IMG/VR virus record: IMGVR_UViG_3300020123_000219
Coordinates: 1 to 64,000 of that record
Direction: 5' to 3' (one strand)
DNA length: 64,000 nt
Origin: a virus
Position numbers and translations under genes: made by a program. The notes under the pieces were generated by a model that made no database searches, was not told the DNA's origin, and was given only the letters and a program-made list of their open reading frames with translations. Below, one piece after another: positions 90-59,480 of the stretch (the first letter of the stretch is position 1; each line of letters starts with the position of its first letter).

Positions 90-608
90 TTAGCATGCAA
101 CCGCCTTCTTTCTCCGGCGCCGGGCTGCTTCGTTTCTTGCATGGCAGGCCAGGCACCTGCGCTCGCCGCTCGGCTTGACTGACGTATTCTTCGGGGTATA
201 CGCGTGACCGTGCCTGCACTGAGCCGACAGCGGACGAAACGACGTACCATGCCTGACCCTATCCTGGCCGTTCTCCGCCGGAGTCCCCCACACTAGGTTC
301 GACGCCCTATTATTAAGGTGATCACCGTCAAGGTGACGCCCCTGCATGCCCGGCCCGGGACGGGCTCCGCTGAACGCATCAAGCACGAGTTCATGAACGT
401 AGCGCTTCGATATGCACCCGTCGGCGCAGAGTGATACGCAGAGGTAATGACCCCTTGATCGCGGCCACGGCTTCAGGTCTGCGGCCTTCCGCCGCCACCC
501 GCGCGCATCAAGCCGTGCAAGAACCCGGACATGACCGAGGTCGCTGACCTCATAGATTCCCTCGAACCCCGCCACCGGCAGCCAGGTCTCACCTGCTGTC
601 GTGGCCAT
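90..608 (-). CDS. NUMOD4-HNH homing endonuclease
   Basis: WLPVAGFEGIYEVSDLGHVR (NUMOD4) and HELVLDAF...RHLDGDHLNNRASNL (HNH), C-terminal CRHGH...CLAC zinc module. Confidence 0.9.
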   Translation of the reverse strand: MATTAGETWLPVAGFEGIYEVSDLGHVRVLARLDARGWRRKAADLKPWPRSRGHYLCVSLCADGCISKRYVHELVLDAFSGARPGPGMQGRHLDGDHLNNRASNLVWGTPAENGQDRVRHGTSFRPLSAQCRHGHAYTPKNTSVKPSGERRCLACHARNEAARRRRKKAVAC

Positions 609-646
609 TGGCGCCTCCCTTATCCTGTAGGCTCTAACCTTATACT

Positions 647-780
647 GGCAGGTTTGGTCGTTACTGCCGTCGACGCCCCGCGACTGTCCCGGTCATGCCA
701 AGCCCGCTGCCGACTGGCCCACCCGCCGCTCCGTGCCGCACGCCGACTACCCGCGCCATCGCCCGCATTCCTCCACGTAG
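647..780 (+). repeat. Array 0: leader hairpin plus short CGAC-(NNNNC)n array, putative ncRNA
   Basis: Stem ggcag/ctgcc (647-668) with 12-nt loop gtttggtcgtta; CGAC at 671, 681, 711, 744; units such as tgtcc cggtc atgcc aagcc; TANNNT boxes at 635-646. Confidence 0.7.
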
Positions 781-833
781 TACCCGGATGCGTGGTACTA
801 TCCGCAAGTATCCGACCAGGGAAAGGAACAGGA

Positions 834-1082
834 ATGGACGTAACGCTGATGCGGGCACGCGACACCCTCAGCATTCCCGGCGGCGCCGACCTCATGGCAC
901 CCGAGCCGTGCACCCTCACCCTCACCACAGCTCCCTGCCCGTCCGTGCTCCCGGACCACGCGTGGGCGCGGGGACGGCACGCAGACGGAACCCCCCGCAC
1001 CGTGCTCATCCCCCGCATCATGCCGCCCGCCACGGCCACCAGGCGCGGCGGCACCGACCCGGTCCGCGCCGGGATCATGTGA
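834..1082 (+). CDS. hypothetical protein
   Basis: ATG preceded by GAAAGGA SD; first gene of a + strand cluster. Confidence 0.55.
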   Translation: MDVTLMRARDTLSIPGGADLMAPEPCTLTLTTAPCPSVLPDHAWARGRHADGTPRTVLIPRIMPPATATRRGGTDPVRAGIM

Positions 1083-1084
1083 CC

Positions 1085-1204
1085 ATGACCGAGGAAACCT
1101 GCGTCTGCCAGATCGACGGCGGCCAATGCCAGAACAACGCCGTAACCGGCGACGACTACTGCAGCCTGTGCCTGAACGACAGGCACGCCCACCACAACAA
1201 CTGA
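1085..1204 (+). CDS. small Cys-rich protein
   Basis: MTEETCVCQIDGGQC...CSLC; closely packed with neighbours. Confidence 0.45.
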   Translation: MTEETCVCQIDGGQCQNNAVTGDDYCSLCLNDRHAHHNN

Positions 1205-1234
1205 GAACACGCGCCGGGAAAGGAAAACACGAAA

Positions 1235-1576
1235 ATGGGTCACGGAACGTACACCTTCGGCAAGATGATCGAGATAGCCGCGCTCACCGGCTTCGGCACC
1301 GCCATGCTCGCCGTCATGGTCCTGCTCGCCGGATGGACCCGCGCCGGCCGGCACGCAGCCGAAGCTGCCCTGGCCGCCCGCGAGACCCGGTGCGCTGCCG
1401 CAGGTTGCGCCCACTCCCACGCCGCCAGCAGCCAGGACATCGGAACCCCGGACGACGACGACGCGACCATCAACTGGCTCACCTGCCTCAGCAGCGACAC
1501 CCCCGCCCAATGGCAGGGAATCGACGCGGAACTCAGCCGCGTCCTCGCCTGGGCCGACCGGGTACTCGCCGGATGA
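1235..1576 (+). CDS. hypothetical membrane protein
   Basis: Strong SD, N-terminal hydrophobic helix, ATGA overlap with next gene. Confidence 0.65.
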   Translation: MGHGTYTFGKMIEIAALTGFGTAMLAVMVLLAGWTRAGRHAAEAALAARETRCAAAGCAHSHAASSQDIGTPDDDDATINWLTCLSSDTPAQWQGIDAELSRVLAWADRVLAG

Positions 1577-2223
1577 AACAACCCCACGCCGTCCCGCCCG
1601 GCAAGCCGTGGACCAGCCGGAAAGCCCGCCGCACCTGGGGACCTCTGAAACTGGGGCGGCTGGCCGCCAGGCTGGTCCGCAGGCCGGACCCGGAGCGGTC
1701 CCACCCCGGTTACCGGACGTGGGAAGAAGTCAAGGACAAGCGCGCCATGCACGACCAGTGGGCACGCGACCACAAGGCACGCGGCTGGCTGATCAGCCGG
1801 GCCTACTCCCTCGACCGGTGGGTGTCGTCCGTCCTGCACCTCACCTGGTACCGCAAGACCCGCACCTTCATCACCCGGGGCCGCAAAGGCTGGGCACCCC
1901 GCGACATCTGGTCCCTCGACCACTACCTCACCCGGGTCATCGGCGACGAGTTCGCGTGGGCCGCCGGCCTCATCGGCGACACCGTCCTCGAACTCGACCG
2001 CACCAGCCACTCCTACCCCAGCGACGGCATGACCCCCGGCCAGTGGCGCGACATCCTCCTCAACATCAGCGTCCCCCTCCGCGCCTACAAGCACCTCTGG
2101 GAAGAAAGCACCCGCGAAGACCGCACCTACAAGGAAAACCGGGCAGCAGAGGAAAAGATCATCAACGACGCAGCAGACGCGTTCCGGCTCCTCGCCGACC
2201 ACCTCCCCTCACTCTGGGACTAA
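1573..2223 (+). CDS. hypothetical phage protein
   Basis: ATGA-coupled start, high GC3 frame, ends HLPSLWD. Confidence 0.65.
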   Translation: MKQPHAVPPGKPWTSRKARRTWGPLKLGRLAARLVRRPDPERSHPGYRTWEEVKDKRAMHDQWARDHKARGWLISRAYSLDRWVSSVLHLTWYRKTRTFITRGRKGWAPRDIWSLDHYLTRVIGDEFAWAAGLIGDTVLELDRTSHSYPSDGMTPGQWRDILLNISVPLRAYKHLWEESTREDRTYKENRAAEEKIINDAADAFRLLADHLPSLWD

Positions 2224-2228
2224 CCGCT

Positions 2229-2486
2229 GTGAAACCCGCAGGCCCGATCACCGAACCCCACCCGATCGAAGAATGCTACGGGTCGAAACTCCACTGCTGG
2301 TCGCATGACGTTGACGAACCCGACCAGCCGGCCTACATCTCGTGTTTCGAGTGCAAGCACGTTTACCGGTCGGCTGAGGAACTAGTCGCCGAGCACAACA
2401 AGCACCTAGACCCGGCATGGAATGAACCTGCCGTGACAGACCCGGAACTTGTGCACTGCTGCCCCCTGTGCATCCACGACTGGTAA
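2229..2486 (+). CDS. small zinc-binding hypothetical protein
   Basis: GTG start; CFECKH and CPLCIHDW motifs. Confidence 0.6.
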   Translation: MKPAGPITEPHPIEECYGSKLHCWSHDVDEPDQPAYISCFECKHVYRSAEELVAEHNKHLDPAWNEPAVTDPELVHCCPLCIHDW

Positions 2487-2500
2487 CGAGCAAAGGAAAC

Positions 2501-2863
2501 ATGAAACTGTACCTGGCAGGCCCGATGCGCGGCTACCCCGAATTCAACCACCCGGCCTTCCACGCCGCCGCCGCCGAACTCCGCGCCTCCGGCCACGCAG
2601 TGTTCAACCCCGCCGAGCACGCCGAGTCACTCGGCATCAACACCACAGGAATGACCGGCGACCCCAGCCACGAAGAACTAGCCGGGTACTCGCTGCGGGA
2701 ACTCATCGCCGCCGACCTGGCCTGGATCTGCGCCAACGCCGAAGCGATCGCCCTGCTCCCCGGATGGCAGGACTCACTCGGCGCCGCAGCCGAGGTAGCA
2801 ACAGCCAAAGCACTCGGCATCCCGGTCGGGTACGCCCGGGACTTCCTCGCCAACCCCCGATGA
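2501..2863 (+). CDS. DUF4406 / nucleoside 2-deoxyribosyltransferase-like protein
   Basis: MKLYLAGPMRGYPEFNHPAF...FNPAE...LLPGWQDSLGAAAE matches the family pattern. Confidence 0.85.
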   Translation: MKLYLAGPMRGYPEFNHPAFHAAAAELRASGHAVFNPAEHAESLGINTTGMTGDPSHEELAGYSLRELIAADLAWICANAEAIALLPGWQDSLGAAAEVATAKALGIPVGYARDFLANPR

Positions 2864-3033
2864 CTAACCCTGACTGCGGCTGCGCTCGCGCAGCGGAACG
2901 CTGGAAGTTGAGGCCCAGGTCATCGCACGACCTGGGCCTCAACTGTGTCCCGGGGGTCTCGACCTGACCCGTGAACGGTGGTATGATCGGTACGGTAAGC
3001 GGCAGTGAAACAGAAACTATAAGGCTACAGGCA

Positions 3034-3360
3034 TTGGCTCGCACGCACATCGTGACCGACGACCTTGACGGAACCCCGGCCCAGGAGACCATCCAGTTCT
3101 CCATCAGCGGGAAGTATTACGAGATCGATTTGTCCCACGCGAACGCTGACACGTTCCGGGAAGTGTTCCAGCCGTGGATCGACGCGGCCAGGTCCCGGAA
3201 CCCGGCCCGGCAGCTTCCCCGGTCGCGGGATTCCCGCGCGGAGTCCGCTGCGATCCGTGACTGGGCCAGGCACACGGGCGTGGACGTGAAGGACCGGGGG
3301 AGGCTCCCGTCGGGCGTGAAACGCCAGTACTATAACCGGATCACTTCCGCCGCCGCTTAA
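3034..3360 (+). CDS. lsr2: Lsr2-family nucleoid-associated protein
   Basis: TDDLDG...YEIDLS dimerisation domain and IRDWAR...RGRLP AT-hook-like motif; TTG start inferred. Confidence 0.92.
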   Translation: MARTHIVTDDLDGTPAQETIQFSISGKYYEIDLSHANADTFREVFQPWIDAARSRNPARQLPRSRDSRAESAAIRDWARHTGVDVKDRGRLPSGVKRQYYNRITSAAA

Positions 3361-3371
3361 AAAAGAAACCT

Positions 3372-3690
3372 CCTGCCGGTACGGTCATCACGGCAGGCAG
3401 CAAACGACTCTCCATTCCAGTACAGGCCGCTGCGTGGCGACTTGTCCGACCAGGGCACGGCGCTTCGACTAATCGTCGCTATCCCGGTCGGCCCCGACTC
3501 TGCCATTCACGACCAACCCGATCCGACGGGTCCGTGCGCGCCGCCTCCCTCGCCGACATGTCAGGCCCACGCGCTTCATGACCGCCGACCTGTCAGACCC
3601 GCGCGTACCACAGCATGTGACTACCCTGCCCACGCCATTCCGTCGACGACTACGCGACTCCCTGCCCGCCCCACCCGCACCCGACTTCCC
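3372..3690 (+). repeat. Array 1: leader hairpin plus 9 units of YGAC-(NNNNC)4-5, putative ncRNA
   Basis: Stem cctgccg/cggcagg with loop gtacggtcatca; YGAC at 3405, 3438, 3466, 3495, 3524, 3554, 3586, 3618, 3647, 3682; nearly every pentamer ends in C. Confidence 0.9.
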
Positions 3691-4125
3691 TCACTCGTCA
3701 GAAGGACCGAAATCCTCAGGGAAAAGCACATCGGCTGTAGGCCATTCCCCGTGCGCGAAGAACTCGACTTCTGCCACGTCGTCCCTGCCCCGGAACACGA
3801 ACTTGCGGACGCGGGGGCACGCCCGCAGGTGCAGGCCGCCGCACCACATGCATCCCTCGCCGTTCGCGAACCGTTCCCGCACGGACGCCCGCTGTTCCTC
3901 GTCGAGGTCTTCAGGGTCCGCGCGTTCCGGCCCGGTCATCGGGTCCGCGAGCGCCTGCTCGCGGATGTCGGCGAACCCACGGAGGCGATCCTCGTGGCTG
4001 CGTATCATCGCCGCTGACAGGGCGATGGCGGGAGCGAGCTTGCTGACCTGGTCGTCGTCGAGGACGCGGCCGAGGGTTTTCCTGAGCACTGCTTCCAGCG
4101 CGGGCCATTCAGGTGAACCAGCCAT
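3691..4125 (-). CDS. hypothetical protein with CxxC...C motif
   Basis: SD AGGAAAGG; CMWCGGLHLRAC; fills the gap between arrays 1 and 2. Confidence 0.7.
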   Translation of the reverse strand: MAGSPEWPALEAVLRKTLGRVLDDDQVSKLAPAIALSAAMIRSHEDRLRGFADIREQALADPMTGPERADPEDLDEEQRASVRERFANGEGCMWCGGLHLRACPRVRKFVFRGRDDVAEVEFFAHGEWPTADVLFPEDFGPSDE

Positions 4126-4140
4126 GAGCGCCTTTCCTGA

Positions 4141-4146
4141 TACAAT
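4141..4146 (+). promoter_or_regulatory. putative -10 box for array 2
   Basis: TACAAT in an AT-rich patch 12 nt upstream of the leader hairpin. Confidence 0.45.
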
Positions 4147-4158
4147 TTAACTGACACG

Positions 4159-4830
4159 CCTGCCGGTACGGTCATCACGGCAGGAGACAAACGACCCTCC
4201 CTTGCCACGCGTGCTCCGACTCCGCCAGCCAGCTCCGGACAATAGCCGACTTCCCGCGCCTTTGCGGCTCGCCGCGACCACCCATGCCCGCGCCATTCCT
4301 TGCGCCGCCAACCGAGCCGACATGCCTGCCCGGCGCGTGACCCACTTCCGACATGACCCTCCCGTTCCCGCCACCCCCGACTCTCCGCTGCGACGCATAG
4401 CCCCGTGACTAACCGGTGCGGTACCGCCCATTGCCGACATGCCGCCGCCCGCGCCCGTCCCGTATCCGACCGGCCAGGCCATCACATGCCAGACCACCCG
4501 ACTTGCCGTTCCATTGCAGTCCCGGCCCGACCTCCCAGGCCGACTCGTCGCAAGCCCGACTCTCCATTCCTGCCCGATGCCGCGCCCCGACGTGCCGCGC
4601 CGCTCCTGCGCATGCGACTGCTCCGGGCATCACACTGCGAACCGACCAACCGCTCCTACGCGAAACGCTCCCGACTCCCCAGCTCAGGCCCACTCCCTTC
4701 CCGACTCCCCAGCTCAGCCCAGGCCCGACTTGCCTATCCGATCCCGCGCCGACCTGACTTGCCGGCCCGATCCCGCGCCGACATGCCGTTGCTGCGCCCT
4801 CCACCGCGACTCTCCATCGCCCTGCTGACC
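4159..4830 (+). repeat. Array 2: leader hairpin plus ~22 units of YGAC-(NNNNC)n, putative ncRNA
   Basis: 26-nt leader identical to array 1; YGAC mostly every 24-32 nt from 4192 to 4826; e.g. CGAC ttgcc gttcc attgc agtcc cggcc CGAC ctccc aggcc gactc gtcgc aagcc. Confidence 0.92.
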
Positions 4831-4831
4831 G

Positions 4832-6502
4832 CTACCGGAACAACGCCGACGCCGCGCCCTGAAACGGTGACGACACCTCCGCGTGCGCGAGCATGTCCCC
4901 CGCCGGGTACGGCTCCGGTTCCCCCTCATCCAGAACCGGGGCCTGCCGGCACTTCGGGCACGCCGGATGCCCCGCCCCGTAGTACTTGTGGCCGCAGAAC
5001 CCGCACTCCGCCACCCCGTACACGTCAGCCCACGACCCCGCCTGCCGCCAGAACGCCTGCACCACGGCGTCCCCCCGGTCCGTTGACCGGCCGATCCTGG
5101 CCCGGATCTCGTCCTTCGTCTCCATCCGCAGCACCCCGCCGGACAGCGGTTCCTTGCTGTGCGGCGCCGACAGGTCCGACAGCAGGTCCTCGTCATCAGG
5201 CAGGCACACCGTGGACCCAGCCGACGGGTCCAGCATCTCCCGCAGCCCGTACCAGGCCCCTACCCTGCAATTCAAGAAGGAAAGCTCGCCGGTCTTGTCC
5301 CTCTTCCGGGTCCGCGCGGACGCCGTGAACGGCTCGGCCCGCGCCCCCATCTCCCGCAGCCGGTCCAGCACCCCCGCCCCGATCCCGATCACGTCCACCA
5401 TCGCGGTCGCCTCCGGGTCCGCGTCGAGGATGCCCTTCACCCGCCCGGTCACCGCCATCGTGTCTTCCTTCGCGTACGTCCGCAGCTCGGTGATCACGTC
5501 GCCCTTGCGGATCGCTATCGCGGTCTTGTCCTCCCCCATACGCGCCGGGTCCACCCCGACCACGTGCGGCTCCCCCGCGTGCAGCAGCCCCGCGCCCTCC
5601 CGCTCGTACCAGCGTTCCACCGCCGCCTCGGCCCACGCCAGCGGAATGATCGCATCCTCATCTCCCGCGTAGAACTCGCCCAGCACGCGGTTCTGGTACA
5701 GCGACGAGATCTCGCCCCACTGCTTCTTCCGCTGGTCAGCCCACTGCTCGCTGATCCTCAGCGACGAGATCGCCTCAGCGAGGGTGACGTGCCGGGGCCG
5801 CCAGTCCTCGTAGCCGGGGCGGCGGGAGCAGATGTCGTAGAACCGTCCCTGCGGCTCCCCTGGCGTGGACAGCGCCAGGGCGTAGGCTTCCCCGGTCCCG
5901 GAGAACGCGCCCTCGCACGCGTCGAACGTGTTCGCGGGGATCGACTTCGACTCGTCGTAGATGAACAGGAGGCTGTCGGCGTGGCAGCCCTCGATCAGGG
6001 CCGGGTTGGAGCACGCGGCAGCGAACGCCTGCCCGTGCTGCAGGTTGACGTGCAGGGACAGCATCTCGCGGGGCTGCAGCGGGTAGTCCCGGATCTTCTC
6101 CCAGTTCAGCCGCTGCGACCATTTCCGGATCTCCGGCCACAGGTAGTGGATGAGCTGCCGCCACGCCCCTGCCGTGGTCACGATCTTCCAGTCCGTTCCG
6201 GTCGCGTCCCTGGTGAGCGCGAACCACCACACGGTCAGCGCCGCGATGCAGGACTTCCCGAGCCCGTGGGGGCCTCGCACCGCTTCCCGCTTGTGGAGGG
6301 ACAGCCCCCCGATGATGTCTTCCTGGTAGGGGGTCAGGCCGGGGCCGTCGCGGAAGTCGACGCAGTCATGGATGAACGCGACCGGGTCGTCGTAGTAGAC
6401 GGCGACGCCTTTCTTGACCTGCGCTGCGCGCTGCTTCAGTGACCGCAGGTAACGGAGGCGTTCGAGCCTGATCTCGTCGAGTGACCGTGGAGCCTGGTCC
6501 AA
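4832..6502 (-). CDS. terL: terminase large subunit
   Basis: Walker A RGPHGLGKS, Walker B LFIYDES, motif III LSTP, nuclease GVDPARMGED and STDRGDA. Confidence 0.93.
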   Translation of the reverse strand: MDQAPRSLDEIRLERLRYLRSLKQRAAQVKKGVAVYYDDPVAFIHDCVDFRDGPGLTPYQEDIIGGLSLHKREAVRGPHGLGKSCIAALTVWWFALTRDATGTDWKIVTTAGAWRQLIHYLWPEIRKWSQRLNWEKIRDYPLQPREMLSLHVNLQHGQAFAAACSNPALIEGCHADSLLFIYDESKSIPANTFDACEGAFSGTGEAYALALSTPGEPQGRFYDICSRRPGYEDWRPRHVTLAEAISSLRISEQWADQRKKQWGEISSLYQNRVLGEFYAGDEDAIIPLAWAEAAVERWYEREGAGLLHAGEPHVVGVDPARMGEDKTAIAIRKGDVITELRTYAKEDTMAVTGRVKGILDADPEATAMVDVIGIGAGVLDRLREMGARAEPFTASARTRKRDKTGELSFLNCRVGAWYGLREMLDPSAGSTVCLPDDEDLLSDLSAPHSKEPLSGGVLRMETKDEIRARIGRSTDRGDAVVQAFWRQAGSWADVYGVAECGFCGHKYYGAGHPACPKCRQAPVLDEGEPEPYPAGDMLAHAEVSSPFQGAASALFR

Positions 6503-6519
6503 TTACCTCCCTTACAGGG

Positions 6520-6822
6520 GTAACTGTACCGTCTCGCGGTGTCGGTGAGGAGTGCAGAGCAGGGACTTGGCCAGTCGGGCGCGGGACGCGCTGACGTGGA
6601 AAGTCGGGCGCGAGGGGAACTGGCCAGGCAAAGTCGGGGCGGAGCGGACAGCAACGGCTGGCGGAGTCGGGCCGGCGCTGGGCGGGATAGGCACGTCGGA
6701 ACGGGGCGGAGTGGACTGGCGGGACAAGTCGGTGTGGCAATGACCGGCCAGGACTAGTCGATTCGCCCGGAGCTGCGGTGAGTGGGATTGTCGTGACGGG
6801 ATGTAGCGACCGAACCATCCCG
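6520..6822 (-). repeat. Array 3: leader hairpin plus 8 units of CGAC-(NNNNC)5 on the minus strand, putative ncRNA
   Basis: Stem cgggatg/catcccg (6797-6822), minus-strand loop gttcggtcgcta; GTCG on + at 6541, 6574, 6603, 6633, 6666, 6695, 6728, 6757, 6790. Confidence 0.9.
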
Positions 6823-6836
6823 GTGAATACTTCCGG

Positions 6837-7388
6837 TCAGGAGGAGCTGACGACCCTGAGGTGCCGACCGTCACTGGCGGGACGTTTCGGCTTGGCCGCG
6901 CGCAGCTTCCCGGCCGTGGCCGTTGCCTTCTGCGGGGGCCACGGCTTGCCTGCTGCCTCGGCTTCCCTGCGGCGCCGCTCGGTGTTGTCCCGGGTGTTCT
7001 TCTTCTCGCAGTCAGTGCACTGGGTCCGCAGCTTTTCCGGGTGCTTCTTGTTCGCGTAGAACGTCAGCTCCGGGTTGTCGCGGACGTTGCGCTTGCAGGA
7101 GCTGCACGTCCGGGGCGGCGGCTCGGGGTCCTCGCCCCGCAGGGCGCGGGCCTCGTTCCTCATCTCCGCAGCGCTGCGCCTGGCCGCGCGGACCAGCACC
7201 TCGTGCTTGCGGACCGTGAGTTCGTCGCGGCGGCGGTCCCGCCGCGACCAGTCAGTTTCCAGCGTGATCAGCGCGTCGACCTTGGCCATGATCTCGTCGG
7301 CGTAGCCAGCGAGACCGAGCGCGAGCGTGCCTTTCAGGTCAGCCCGCGCTTCCAGTAGCTCTTTCGCGTAATCCCTTTCCGTTCCCAT
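6837..7388 (-). CDS. hypothetical zinc-binding protein
   Basis: CSSC...CTDC, basic C-terminus; TAGAAT upstream on the minus strand. Confidence 0.7.
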   Translation of the reverse strand: MGTERDYAKELLEARADLKGTLALGLAGYADEIMAKVDALITLETDWSRRDRRRDELTVRKHEVLVRAARRSAAEMRNEARALRGEDPEPPPRTCSSCKRNVRDNPELTFYANKKHPEKLRTQCTDCEKKNTRDNTERRRREAEAAGKPWPPQKATATAGKLRAAKPKRPASDGRHLRVVSSS

Positions 7389-19373: not shown

Positions 19374-19928
19374 ATGGCAAGACGCGACTACGTGGCCGAC
19401 ATGACGGCCTACATCAAGGAACGCATCCCTGAAGGGGACTACGTCACGGCCAAGGTGGCGAAGCTGATCTTCGAGCAGGTCAAATCCGACGACCCTGACC
19501 TGCTCAGCGGCTGGCTCATGGCCTGCGGGCCGTCGCTGATCAGCAGGCAGATCGGCCACGCCCGCCTCGCGAGCCACGCGACCGCGCGCCGGTCCCTGAA
19601 GAGGGAACGGTTCGCGGCGGCGGCAGCGGCCTTCAGCCAGGGAAACCCCGAGCCGCTGAAAGATTACCTGGACGAGCTGCAGTACCGCACCGCCGGTAAC
19701 GTGATCAAGAAACTGGGGAACCTGACCAGCGCGGACTGCCGGTTCATCGCGTCGACCTGCCACGAGGCGTCCGCTACCTACAACTTCGAGGCCGTCTTCA
19801 TGGACGCGCTCGCACGCAAGGTACCGGAAGGGGTCGTGCGGGACCACCTCACCGACGAGCAGGTCGCCGAGCTGAGGTCCAACGTGGCTGACGCGATCCA
19901 GCGCAGGTCGGCTGTCATCAGCGCCTGA
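19374..19928 (+). CDS. hypothetical helical protein, upstream neighbour of the RAMP-like gene
   Basis: SD, good coding bias, no family recognised. Confidence 0.75.
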   Translation: MARRDYVADMTAYIKERIPEGDYVTAKVAKLIFEQVKSDDPDLLSGWLMACGPSLISRQIGHARLASHATARRSLKRERFAAAAAAFSQGNPEPLKDYLDELQYRTAGNVIKKLGNLTSADCRFIASTCHEASATYNFEAVFMDALARKVPEGVVRDHLTDEQVAELRSNVADAIQRRSAVISA

Positions 19929-19960
19929 CACGAAACAAGGGAAAAGGAAAGGAAACCGAA

Positions 19961-20833
19961 GTGGCTGTTGCCATTCCCCCGGCCGGGAACGTGTTCAAGG
20001 AATATGACGAGCGCGCATGGCCGTACAAGTTCACCGTCGGATTCCGCATCGGCGCCATCGCCGGCGGCATCCCCTCCGACCCGATGATCGCCGAGTCATG
20101 GATCAAGACGAAGATCGCGGGGAAAAGCGAGGAAGATTACCGGGCCATGGTCGCGCAGACCATGCTGGACCGCAACGTGACCCTCGACGAGGCCGTAGCC
20201 CAGGCCAACATCATGAAGAACCTGAACGGGTTCAAGCGGGACACCGAGCTGGGCATGTACATCGAGGGCCGGCAGGTCAAGGCAGCGATGAAGGAAGCAG
20301 TGTCCGTTGCCTGCGCGTCCCCGGAGAACAAGCTGGACATCAGGTCATGGGGCAACACCCGCAAGTACCTGACCAACTACCTCCCCGAGCACGTGTTCGT
20401 CGACGACCTGCGGGTCTACCTGTTCCACGCCTCCGACCACCCCCGCGAGGGCTGCGCCTCGGACTGCGAGGACTGCAAGGAAGGACGCGTGTACAAGGCA
20501 GGCGACCCGTTCCACGAGAAGACCCGGGTGATGCAGACCTTCCCGGTGAACGAGAAGACCCGCCAGTCAGGCATCCAGTACACCGAAGTGTGCGAGGACG
20601 TGTACATCGAGTTCACGGTCCGCACCGACCACCCGTTCACCTACGAAGAGTGGGCGATGATCTGGCTGACCGGCCAGTACCAGGGCGTCGGCGCGCTGCG
20701 GGCGATGGGCATGGGCGTCTACGAGCCCGTCAAGTTCACGCAGATCCGGGGACCGGCCATCAAGAAGGCCGGCAAGTCCGGCGGCCCCAAGAAAAAGGAA
20801 GCCGCAGGCGCAGGCGAGGATGAAGAAGACTGA
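19961..20833 (+). CDS. RAMP / Cas7 (Csm3)-like RNA-binding protein
   Basis: N-terminal strand + AIAGG; MYIEGRQVKAAMKEA resembles xIPGSSxKGxxR; C-terminal G-rich loop GVGALRAMGMG; HxxxxCxxxCxxC insertion. Confidence 0.7.
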   Translation: MAVAIPPAGNVFKEYDERAWPYKFTVGFRIGAIAGGIPSDPMIAESWIKTKIAGKSEEDYRAMVAQTMLDRNVTLDEAVAQANIMKNLNGFKRDTELGMYIEGRQVKAAMKEAVSVACASPENKLDIRSWGNTRKYLTNYLPEHVFVDDLRVYLFHASDHPREGCASDCEDCKEGRVYKAGDPFHEKTRVMQTFPVNEKTRQSGIQYTEVCEDVYIEFTVRTDHPFTYEEWAMIWLTGQYQGVGALRAMGMGVYEPVKFTQIRGPAIKKAGKSGGPKKKEAAGAGEDEED

Positions 20834-59313: not shown

Positions 59314-59480
59314 CAGGTGACCGCGCCCGACAAGAAATGCCGGAAGACATATCAAGGACGGGACTCGAACCCGCGACCTCTACCTGCGTAGGGTAGCGCT
59401 CTTCCAACTGAGCTACCAGCACCGAATGGTGTGCTGTTATTGAAGGAACTCCCGGCGGGCACCCCGGGCGCGGTCATCTG
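59314..59480 (-). ncRNA. Y RNA-like element with permuted tRNA-like domain
   Basis: 16-bp closing stem; D arm, anticodon-like arm (loop CTACGCA), T arm GGTTCGAGTCC; acceptor-like stem cagcac/gtgctg closed by a loop. Confidence 0.8.

What the first reader, a model, noticed from the sequence alone, without database searches (positions are those of the whole stretch)
647..6822. Conserved leader hairpin with covarying stems and a 12-nt loop heads all four arrays
Arrays 1 and 2 have cctgccg-gtacggtcatca-cggcagg. Array 3 (minus) has cgggatg-gttcggtcgcta-catcccg. Array 0 has ggcag-gtttggtcgtta-ctgcc. Stem sequences differ completely but keep pairing, while loop length and consensus GTWYGGTCRYYA hold. 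This is the signature of a structured RNA element and suggests the CGAC strand is the functional one. It could be a protein-loading or processing signal.
Basis: seen in the sequence. Interest (0 to 1): 0.85.

Follow-up and report, generated by a model that had tools for sequence, protein, structure and literature searches.

The report
Hairpin cap on phage VIPR guide arrays
The four hairpins are real and mark one end of four guide-RNA arrays of a VIPR system (a CRISPR-related phage system first described in 2026); this particular hairpin is confined to one phage lineage and its job is still untested.

Summary
Observation confirmed. Four GC-rich stem-loops (5-7 bp stems, 12-nt loops fitting GTWYGGTCRYYA) lie 2-7 nt before the first CGAC of four strand-specific arrays. 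Four of the 7 stem pairs change on both sides and none is broken, but only three hairpin sequences are independent.

The arrays are VIPR guide (vrRNA) arrays. Units are CGAC plus 4-6 pentamers N-N-B-Y-C, with two hypervariable and three constrained positions. The protein at window 19961-20833 folds as a Cas7-like RAMP. In about 70 of 80 IMG/VR loci its homologues lie next to such arrays. The usual order is accessory gene, array, vipr. In this phage those two genes are 32 nt apart with no array between them. The arrays lie 13 kb away, around the terminase gene.

This hairpin was found only in this lineage: the window, a near-identical contig, and a relative in which 34 nt are identical while the array cannot be aligned. 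Other VIPR clades have different head hairpins or none.

Best reading (about 0.5): a structured RNA cap at the 5' end of C-rich-strand array transcripts, acting as a boundary, stability or loading signal. Main rival (0.25): the G-rich strand is the guide and the hairpin is a 3' tail, as in published vrRNAs. No RNA data were found. This scan has already recorded VIPR systems in other genomes. Verdict: new variant of a known kind, moderate interest.

The parts
647..668 (+). Hairpin H0: 5-bp stem (6 with a terminal U.G pair at 646/669), 12-nt loop GTTTGGTCGTTA
671..770 (+). Array A0: about 4 short CGAC-headed units with C every 5 nt. A second hairpin (TAGTACC, 9 nt, GGTACTA) follows at about 778-800
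629..646 (+). Two -10-like hexamers (TAGGCT at 629-634, TATACT at 641-646) upstream of H0, in a divergent region with the HNH gene (90-608, minus strand)
   Evidence: read from the sequence; inference only
3372..3397 (+). Hairpin H1: 7-bp stem, loop GTACGGTCATCA, 11 nt after the lsr2 stop codon. On the minus strand it is followed by a T-rich run
3405..3700 (+). Array A1: about 9-12 units; 44% C and 23% G
4140..4145 (+). TACAAT -10-like box 13 nt upstream of H2, back to back with a TAAATT box on the minus strand upstream of the 144-aa gene (3691-4125, minus strand)
   Evidence: read from the sequence; not listed by the consensus scan, which requires both promoter hexamers
4159..4184 (+). Hairpin H2, identical to H1. 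The duplicated stretch starts exactly at the 5' base of the hairpin
4192..4870 (+). Array A2: about 24 units, reaching the 3' end of the terminase gene (4832-6502, minus strand)
6797..6822 (-). Hairpin H3: 7-bp stem, loop GTTCGGTCGCTA, 14 nt after the stop codon of the 183-aa gene (6837-7388, minus strand)
   Evidence: an identical copy in L129
6520..6793 (-). Array A3: 9 units between H3 and the terminase ribosome-binding site. The near-identical contig L005 has 12 units
19374..19928 (+). Accessory (vap-like) gene, 184 aa. Homologues lie directly upstream of the array in 44 of 80 Vipr loci
19961..20833 (+). vipr candidate: 290-aa RAMP/Cas7-like protein with a Cys-rich insertion. No array lies next to it in this phage

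Best explanation
The most likely mechanism is as follows. Each array is transcribed on its C-rich (CGAC) strand. A0 and A2 would use their own promoters just upstream of the hairpin. A1 and A3 would be read through from the upstream genes, lsr2 and the 183-aa gene. The hairpin then lies at or near the 5' end of the array RNA and sets the array's 5' boundary. There it could block 5'-end-dependent decay, and its conserved loop could be a recognition site where the phage's Cas7-like Vipr protein, or a processing factor, engages an array that is no longer encoded beside vipr. Shown: the hairpins, their positions, the compensatory changes, the pentamer code, the RAMP fold, and the linkage of the protein family to such arrays. 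Inferred: which strand is transcribed, the transcription starts, and any binding, processing or stabilising role.
For: Array anatomy: units are CGAC plus 4-6 pentamers, with C at 90-100% of unit positions 3, 8, 13, 18 and 23. A two-unit pattern matches 10 times in the window and 0 times in 100 shuffles. The pentamer is N-N-B-Y-C, with two fully variable positions, which fits the 3 fixed plus 2 variable code of VIPR (bioRxiv 10.64898/2026.04.26.720920). Non-GGY motifs such as CAC/NN are reported in 10.64898/2026.10.21.760802.

Protein: the model of window 19961-20833 has pLDDT 69.5. All listed Foldseek PDB matches are chains of type III (Csm/Cmr) or type VII effector complexes, at probability 0.99-1.00.

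Linkage: homologues lie next to C-periodic arrays on the same strand in about 70 of 80 loci. In 44 of 80 the order is accessory gene, array, vipr. Units run from the accessory gene's stop codon to the vipr ribosome-binding site, so the C-rich strand must be transcribed there.

Hairpin: compensatory changes at 4 of 7 pairs. It is the minimum-energy fold on the CGAC strand in all four cases, but not on the opposite strand for three of the four windows folded (the opposite-strand windows were not the same). A 34-nt island is identical in L129 while the upstream DNA is 73% identical and the array cannot be aligned. In metagenome variants the indels lie just outside the hairpins (3359, 4158, 6832) and no change inside a hairpin is among those shown. 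The H1/H2 duplication begins exactly at the hairpin. Other clades have their own head hairpins with covarying closing pairs.
Against: There are no RNA data, so strand, transcript ends and processing are all inferred. Published vrRNAs carry their structured cap, a pseudoknot, at the 3' end and are G-anchored. Reading the G-rich strand would reproduce that layout. Most related arrays have no such hairpin: across 89 array heads the 50 nt upstream fold no better than sequence further upstream (median -12.3 versus -13.3 kcal/mol). A head hairpin is therefore not a general requirement. Only three independent hairpin sequences exist, and the stems are short with a large loop. H1 and H3 lie 11-14 nt after stop codons, where an ordinary terminator-like hairpin would also sit.
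Confidence: 0.5

Rival explanations
1. The functional guide is the G-rich strand. The hairpin is then a 3' tail or cap, possibly part of a small pseudoknot, that ends each array transcript, as in published vrRNAs.
For: Published vrRNAs are G-anchored (YNNGG, NNNGG, YNNNG, NNNNG) and end in a structured 3' tail that caps the Vipr filament. On the G-rich strand our arrays read as a G-anchored tract followed by the hairpin. On that strand H1 is followed by a T-rich run, which looks like an intrinsic terminator. On that strand the loop also reads YGAC, which could pair with the preceding GUCG delimiter. In H1/H2 this pairing would include a G.U pair, which would be a C.A mismatch on the other strand. 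Connector lengths of 2-7 nt suit an H-type pseudoknot; this is my own geometric inference.
Against: In about 70 of 80 related loci the G-rich strand is antisense to vipr, and the array fills the space between the accessory gene's stop and the vipr start. Guides from that strand would need an antisense promoter inside vipr. Non-G motifs exist in divergent VIPR systems. The hairpin is not the best fold on that strand for H0, H2 and H3. H0, H2 and H3 have no T-run. The proposed 4-bp pseudoknot helix is very short.
Confidence: 0.25
2. The hairpin is an ordinary transcription terminator or insulator, or an mRNA 3'-end stabiliser, for neighbouring genes. It was duplicated together with the array cassettes and has no specific role in VIPR.
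For: H1 and H3 lie 11-14 nt after the stop codons of co-directional genes. Actinobacterial terminators often lack a U-tract (my own knowledge). In other clades strong hairpins directly follow the vipr stop codon. Related arrays mostly do without this hairpin.
Against: H0 and H2 have no co-directional upstream gene. A 12-nt loop conserved at 8-10 of 12 positions, while 4 of 7 stem pairs are replaced, is not expected of a generic terminator. All four copies abut an array head and none occurs elsewhere in the 88 kb.
Confidence: 0.15
3. The hairpin is a DNA-level element: an inverted repeat used as a protein-binding or recombination site that moves or seeds array cassettes, or a packaging-related site beside the terminase gene.
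For: The arrays lie at four separate intergenic sites. The H1/H2 duplication starts exactly at the repeat. The arrays flank the terminase gene, and the small terminase gene that relatives carry just upstream of it is missing here. An HNH gene neighbours A0 and an HNH-like gene neighbours A3.
Against: A dimeric DNA-binding protein would conserve the arm sequences, yet the arms change while the centre is conserved. A 12-nt centre makes cruciform extrusion unfavourable (my own knowledge). No flanking direct repeats or target duplications were seen.
Confidence: 0.1

Closest known systems
VIPR systems: Vipr RAMP protein plus vrRNAs, including 'staggered' vrRNA arrays (bioRxiv 10.64898/2026.04.26.720920; cryo-EM in 10.64898/2026.04.26.720927)
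   Same: A lone Cas7-like RAMP gene with a small accessory gene. Phage-encoded. The noncoding arrays have a 5-nt period, with 3 constrained and 2 hypervariable positions per pentamer. Units abut with a one-base register shift, as described for staggered arrays. A structured element caps one end of the repeat tract. Array content turns over quickly between close relatives.
   Different: The fixed letters are B-Y-C on the strand of the vipr gene, not GGY. There is one cap per array, not one per guide. The cap is a simple stem-loop with a 12-nt loop, and on the favoured strand it lies at the 5' end, whereas the published cap is a 3' pseudoknot. The arrays are not beside vipr but 13 kb away at four sites. 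Units are short, at 4-6 pentamers against the published 9-16.
Solo (orphan) vrRNAs of SUSP1-family phages (bioRxiv 10.64898/2026.10.15.759431)
   Same: Guide RNAs are encoded away from any vipr gene.
   Different: Those are single GGYNN guides with a 3' pseudoknot tail, in phages that lack vipr. Here vipr is present, and whole multi-unit arrays are dispersed, each with a hairpin.
CRISPR repeat hairpins bound and cut by Cas6, and CRISPR leaders
   Same: A short GC stem-loop is associated with a RAMP-family protein and marks guide boundaries. A weak Cas6 G-loop match (E 0.022) is the only sequence hint.
   Different: There is one hairpin per array, not one per unit. No Cas6 gene is present, no repeat-spacer structure exists, and no cleavage has been shown.
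5'-terminal stabiliser stem-loops of bacterial mRNAs (for example the ompA 5' hairpin); named from my own knowledge
   Same: A stem-loop lies within a few nucleotides of the predicted 5' end of an RNA that would otherwise be unstructured.
   Different: Such stabilisers need no conserved loop. Here loop length and sequence are conserved.

Membership tests
VIPR system | Vipr protein with a RAMP (Cas7-like) fold | tested here: met
   The AlphaFold2 model has pLDDT 69.5 and pTM 0.66. All listed Foldseek PDB matches are chains of type III (Csm/Cmr) or type VII effector complexes, at probability 0.99-1.00 and TM 0.30-0.38 by query. There is no Pfam or PHROG hit and no sequence match to a solved structure.
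VIPR system | Tandem pentamer repeats with a fixed trinucleotide and a hypervariable dinucleotide | tested here: met
   C autocorrelation peaks at lags 5, 10 and 15 in the three long arrays; A0 (102 nt) is too short to show it. C is at 90-100% of every fifth position. The pentamer composition is N-N-B-Y-C. The motif is not the canonical GGY. Non-canonical motifs are reported in 10.64898/2026.10.21.760802.
VIPR system | Arrays encoded next to the vipr gene | tested here: not met
   In this phage the accessory gene and vipr are 32 nt apart with no array, and the arrays lie 13 kb away. In about 70 of 80 homologous loci the feature is met, so the link between the protein family and the arrays holds. 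Detached solo vrRNAs are known.
VIPR system | Accessory (vap) gene in the locus | tested here: met
   The 184-aa gene at 19374-19928 has homologues directly upstream of the array in 44 of 80 loci. Its relation to the published vap1-6 genes was not tested.
VIPR system | vrRNAs are expressed, processed and bound by Vipr | not testable with these tools
   No RNA run holding this sequence is listed.
VIPR system | Guides match targets under a gapped (1-nt skip) code | not tested
   Units of 4-6 pentamers specify only 8-12 bases, which is too few for the collection scans (at least 14 specified bases are required). Decoding also could not tell the strands apart.
vrRNA structured cap (published 3' pseudoknot tail) | Conserved secondary structure directly flanking the repeat tract | tested here: met
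   A hairpin lies 2-7 nt from the first unit at all four arrays, with compensatory changes.
vrRNA structured cap (published 3' pseudoknot tail) | Located at the 3' end of each individual vrRNA | tested here: inconclusive
   There is one hairpin per array, not one per unit. Whether it lies 5' or 3' depends on the transcribed strand, which is unresolved.
Rfam families | Match to a curated covariance model | tested here: not met
   The only match in the window at gathering threshold is a tRNA at 59350-59422.

The most novel reading that the evidence does not exclude
In this C-anchored actinophage VIPR clade the filament cap has moved to the 5' end and works at the level of the whole array. The conserved 12-nt loop would then be a trans-loading or processing signal, perhaps read by the Cys-rich insertion that none of the seven aligned Vipr homologues has. 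Such a signal would let guide arrays work from anywhere in the genome, detached from the accessory gene-array-vipr operon. That would mean assembly polarity and guide biogenesis differ from the published type II system.
Probability: 0.25. Interest if true: 0.65.

Novelty: new variant of a known kind. Interest (0 to 1): 0.45.

Why it matters
VIPR systems were described only in 2026, and how their guide RNAs are made has been studied only in E. coli-type systems, where each guide has a 3' pseudoknot. This phage shows a different arrangement. Multi-unit staggered arrays lie far from vipr and are embedded in other operons, including the region upstream of the terminase gene, where relatives carry the small terminase gene. 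Each array begins or ends with a small stem-loop whose loop is conserved. If the hairpin is a loading, processing or stability signal, it is a compact and portable 'array start' module. It also gives a direct experimental handle on which strand and which end Vipr uses in C-anchored systems. If it is only a terminator-like boundary, the finding is ordinary.

Tried and rejected
- Rfam scan of the window: only a tRNA.
- Tandem Repeats Finder does not detect the arrays.
- DNA search of the phage collection: only distant terminase and DUF4406 matches, with no arrays.
- Terminase-based relatives at 52-70% identity (80 IMG/VR loci): no hairpin. The closest examined (L009, L010, L012, L013) carry a helix-turn-helix small terminase gene where A3 lies. 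This phage has no homologue of that gene.
- IMG/VR scan for the loop plus two CGACs: only the same phage.
- A covariance model of the hairpin searched over 0.95 Mb of VIPR loci: nothing beyond the seed sequences. The best extra hit, in L327, is a post-vipr hairpin with no array.
The 109-kb contig of the closest terminase relative (P0002, 82% identity) could not be fetched, and the metagenome scan did not return it.
- RNA evidence: no RNA holder is listed. Laying DNA contigs gave only near-identical strains.
- Directional terminators at array ends: too few to decide the strand. The consensus promoter/terminator scan was uninformative because its loop limit is 8 nt.
- Ideas considered before the VIPR identification and dropped: Rho-binding sites or a Rho sponge, phased DNA-binding or packaging sites, primase sites, G-quadruplex or i-motif, Chi-like decoys, and DnaA boxes. 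None explains an invariant C every 5 nt with register resets.
- Pairing between the loop and the delimiter as a general rule: not seen in other clades.
- A broad regular-expression search for wobble pairs in head hairpins was too noisy to use.
Full report
**What is there.** The window is the first 64 kb of an 88,198-bp IMG/VR phage contig that is about 78% complete. It is a high-GC actinophage only distantly related to Streptomyces phage TurkishDelight and Actinoplanes phage phiAsp2. The four hairpins exist exactly as described:
- H0 at 647-668 (+)
- H1 at 3372-3397 (+)
- H2 at 4159-4184 (+), identical to H1
- H3 at 6822-6797 (-)

Stems are 5 or 7 bp and every loop is 12 nt. The four exact matches to the loop consensus in the whole contig are these four loops. 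Each hairpin ends 2-7 nt before the first CGAC of an array.

**Is it more than chance?** Stability alone is unremarkable. The z-scores are +0.4 to -1.9. Perfect hairpins with stems of 7 bp or more and a 12-nt loop occur 28 times in the contig, against about 11 in shuffles. The weight comes from three other points.
- A copy lies at every array head. My rough estimate for that by chance is about 1e-7.
- Loop length and motif are shared.
- Four of the 7 stem pairs change on both sides and no pair is broken. 97% of cells are paired and 0 of 500 shuffles reach the covariation score.

Only three hairpin sequences are independent, so this is suggestive rather than a powered covariation test.

**What the arrays are.** Aligning units at CGAC shows C at 90-100% of unit positions 3, 8, 13, 18 and 23. 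Units are CGAC plus 4, 5 or 6 pentamers, giving 24, 29 or 34 nt. The C autocorrelation peaks at lags 5, 10 and 15 in the three long arrays. A two-unit pattern matches 10 times in the window and never in 100 shuffles. The pentamer is N-N-B-Y-C, with the first two positions fully variable.

A literature search and earlier notes of this scan pointed to VIPR systems, described in bioRxiv 10.64898/2026.04.26.720920. A VIPR system has:
- a lone ancestral RAMP protein, Vipr;
- guide RNAs made of pentamers with three fixed and two hypervariable letters;
- array variants that include 'staggered' arrays whose guides overlap by one base;
- a structured cap on the repeat tract.

**Testing that lead.** The 290-aa protein at 19961-20833 has no Pfam or PHROG hit. 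Its model (pLDDT 69.5) matches only chains of type III (Csm/Cmr) and type VII CRISPR effector complexes, at probability 0.99-1.00. Its homologues lie beside arrays in loci that I had found through the array pattern alone. An alignment-based scan then gave 80 IMG/VR loci. About 70 of them carry a C-periodic array on the strand of vipr and directly adjacent to it. In 44 of them a homologue of the window's 184-aa gene (19374-19928) precedes the array. The usual locus is therefore accessory gene, array, vipr. In this phage the two genes are 32 nt apart with nothing between them. The arrays lie 13 kb away at four sites around the terminase gene. A3 occupies the place where relatives carry a helix-turn-helix small terminase gene.

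**How the arrays evolve.** They change as guide arrays would.
- A contig that is 99.3% identical differs in A3 by a three-unit indel and a 10-nt indel.
- In L129 the upstream DNA is 73% identical and the terminase region 92% identical, yet the array cannot be aligned at all.
- In L129 the hairpin plus TCACGAC, 34 nt, is identical.
- Soil metagenome variants show indels just outside three hairpins, and no change inside a hairpin is among those shown.

**Distribution of the hairpin.** I found it only in this lineage.
- An IMG/VR scan for the loop plus two CGACs found only the same phage.
- A covariance model found nothing else in 0.95 Mb of VIPR loci.

Other clades have their own head elements. 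One is CGAC, GCCGN, a loop of 4-10 nt, NCGGC, then TAGCC, with a covarying closing pair. Another is GCCRC, ATCAGG, GYGGC. Many arrays have no head hairpin at all. Across 89 array heads the upstream 50 nt fold no better than sequence further upstream. A cap at the array head is therefore recurrent but is neither universal nor conserved in sequence.

**Which strand?** This decides whether the hairpin is a 5' leader or a 3' tail.

Evidence for the CGAC (C-rich) strand:
- In the usual loci, units run from the accessory gene's stop codon to the vipr ribosome-binding site, leaving no room for a promoter. That strand must therefore be transcribed.
- TANNNT boxes lie 12-13 nt upstream of H0 and H2, in AT-rich divergent promoter regions.
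- The hairpin is the best fold on this strand in all four cases, and H0 gains a U.G pair.
- Non-G pentamer motifs are reported for divergent VIPR systems.

Evidence for the G-rich strand:
- Published guides are G-anchored and capped at the 3' end by a pseudoknot.
- H1 is followed on that strand by a T-rich run.
- The loop there reads YGAC, which could pair with the preceding GUCG delimiter, using a G.U pair in H1/H2.

Target decoding cannot settle the question, because targets are double-stranded. No RNA run was available, and directional terminators at array ends are too few to help. I put the C-rich strand at about two in three.

**Verdict.** The interpretation as a structured single-strand element tied to the arrays is supported. 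The inference about the strand, and the proposed loading or processing role, remain unproven. The thing as a whole is a VIPR system, a kind already known from 2026 preprints and already recorded by this scan in other genomes. What is new here is the variant: dispersed, staggered, C-anchored arrays detached from vipr, each with one lineage-specific stem-loop cap. Detached 'solo' guides are already known in E. coli phages.

Noticed in passing
window 6503-6836, compared with L009, L010, L012 and L013: Relatives with 68-70% terminase identity carry a helix-turn-helix small terminase gene directly upstream of the large terminase gene. Here that slot holds array A3, and no homologue of that small terminase is found in the 88-kb contig, which is 78% complete.
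   Followed up: partly
window 19374-20833: The accessory gene and vipr are only 32 nt apart, whereas 44 of 80 homologous loci have a 0.3-1.9-kb array between them. The array seems to have been lost from the operon in this lineage.
   Followed up: yes
window 20410-20560 (Vipr residues about 150-200): This Vipr has a Cys-rich insertion (H, then C-x3-C-x2-C) that is absent from the seven aligned homologues. Its glycine-rich loop reads RAMGMG where most aligned relatives have RSQGYG. In parallel, the fourth pentamer position is C in only 52% of pentamers here, against 51-84% in loci with the usual loop, so the ranges touch and the link is only suggestive.
   Followed up: partly
L005 (same phage, 4.2 kb) compared with window 6520-6793: The A3 array differs by three extra units flanked by near-duplicate units, and by a 10-nt indel. 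The rest is 99.3% identical, so the arrays change by unit-level recombination.
   Followed up: yes
L248:3945-9400: More than 5 kb of almost continuous pentamer arrays in one phage contig. The fourth pentamer position is mostly T (58%) rather than C.
   Followed up: no
L298:3798-3833 and 5686-5715: Two 11-12-bp inverted repeats at array heads have loops that contain TTGAC(A). A TAAGGT box lies about 17 nt downstream, so this looks like a promoter embedded in a hairpin.
   Followed up: no
window 778-800: A second hairpin (7-bp stem, 9-nt loop) closes the 3' side of array A0 and overlaps a TACTAT box upstream of the gene that starts at 834.
   Followed up: no
terminase homologues P0003, P0004, P0050, P0053 and P0082: Several close terminase homologues are 870-915 aa long and carry a LAGLIDADG (PF14528) insertion, which is probably an intein. 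The window's terminase (556 aa) has none.
   Followed up: no
window 2971-3360: A phage Lsr2-like nucleoid protein gene (Pfam Lsr2 dimerisation and DNA-binding domains) lies directly upstream of H1 and A1.
   Followed up: partly
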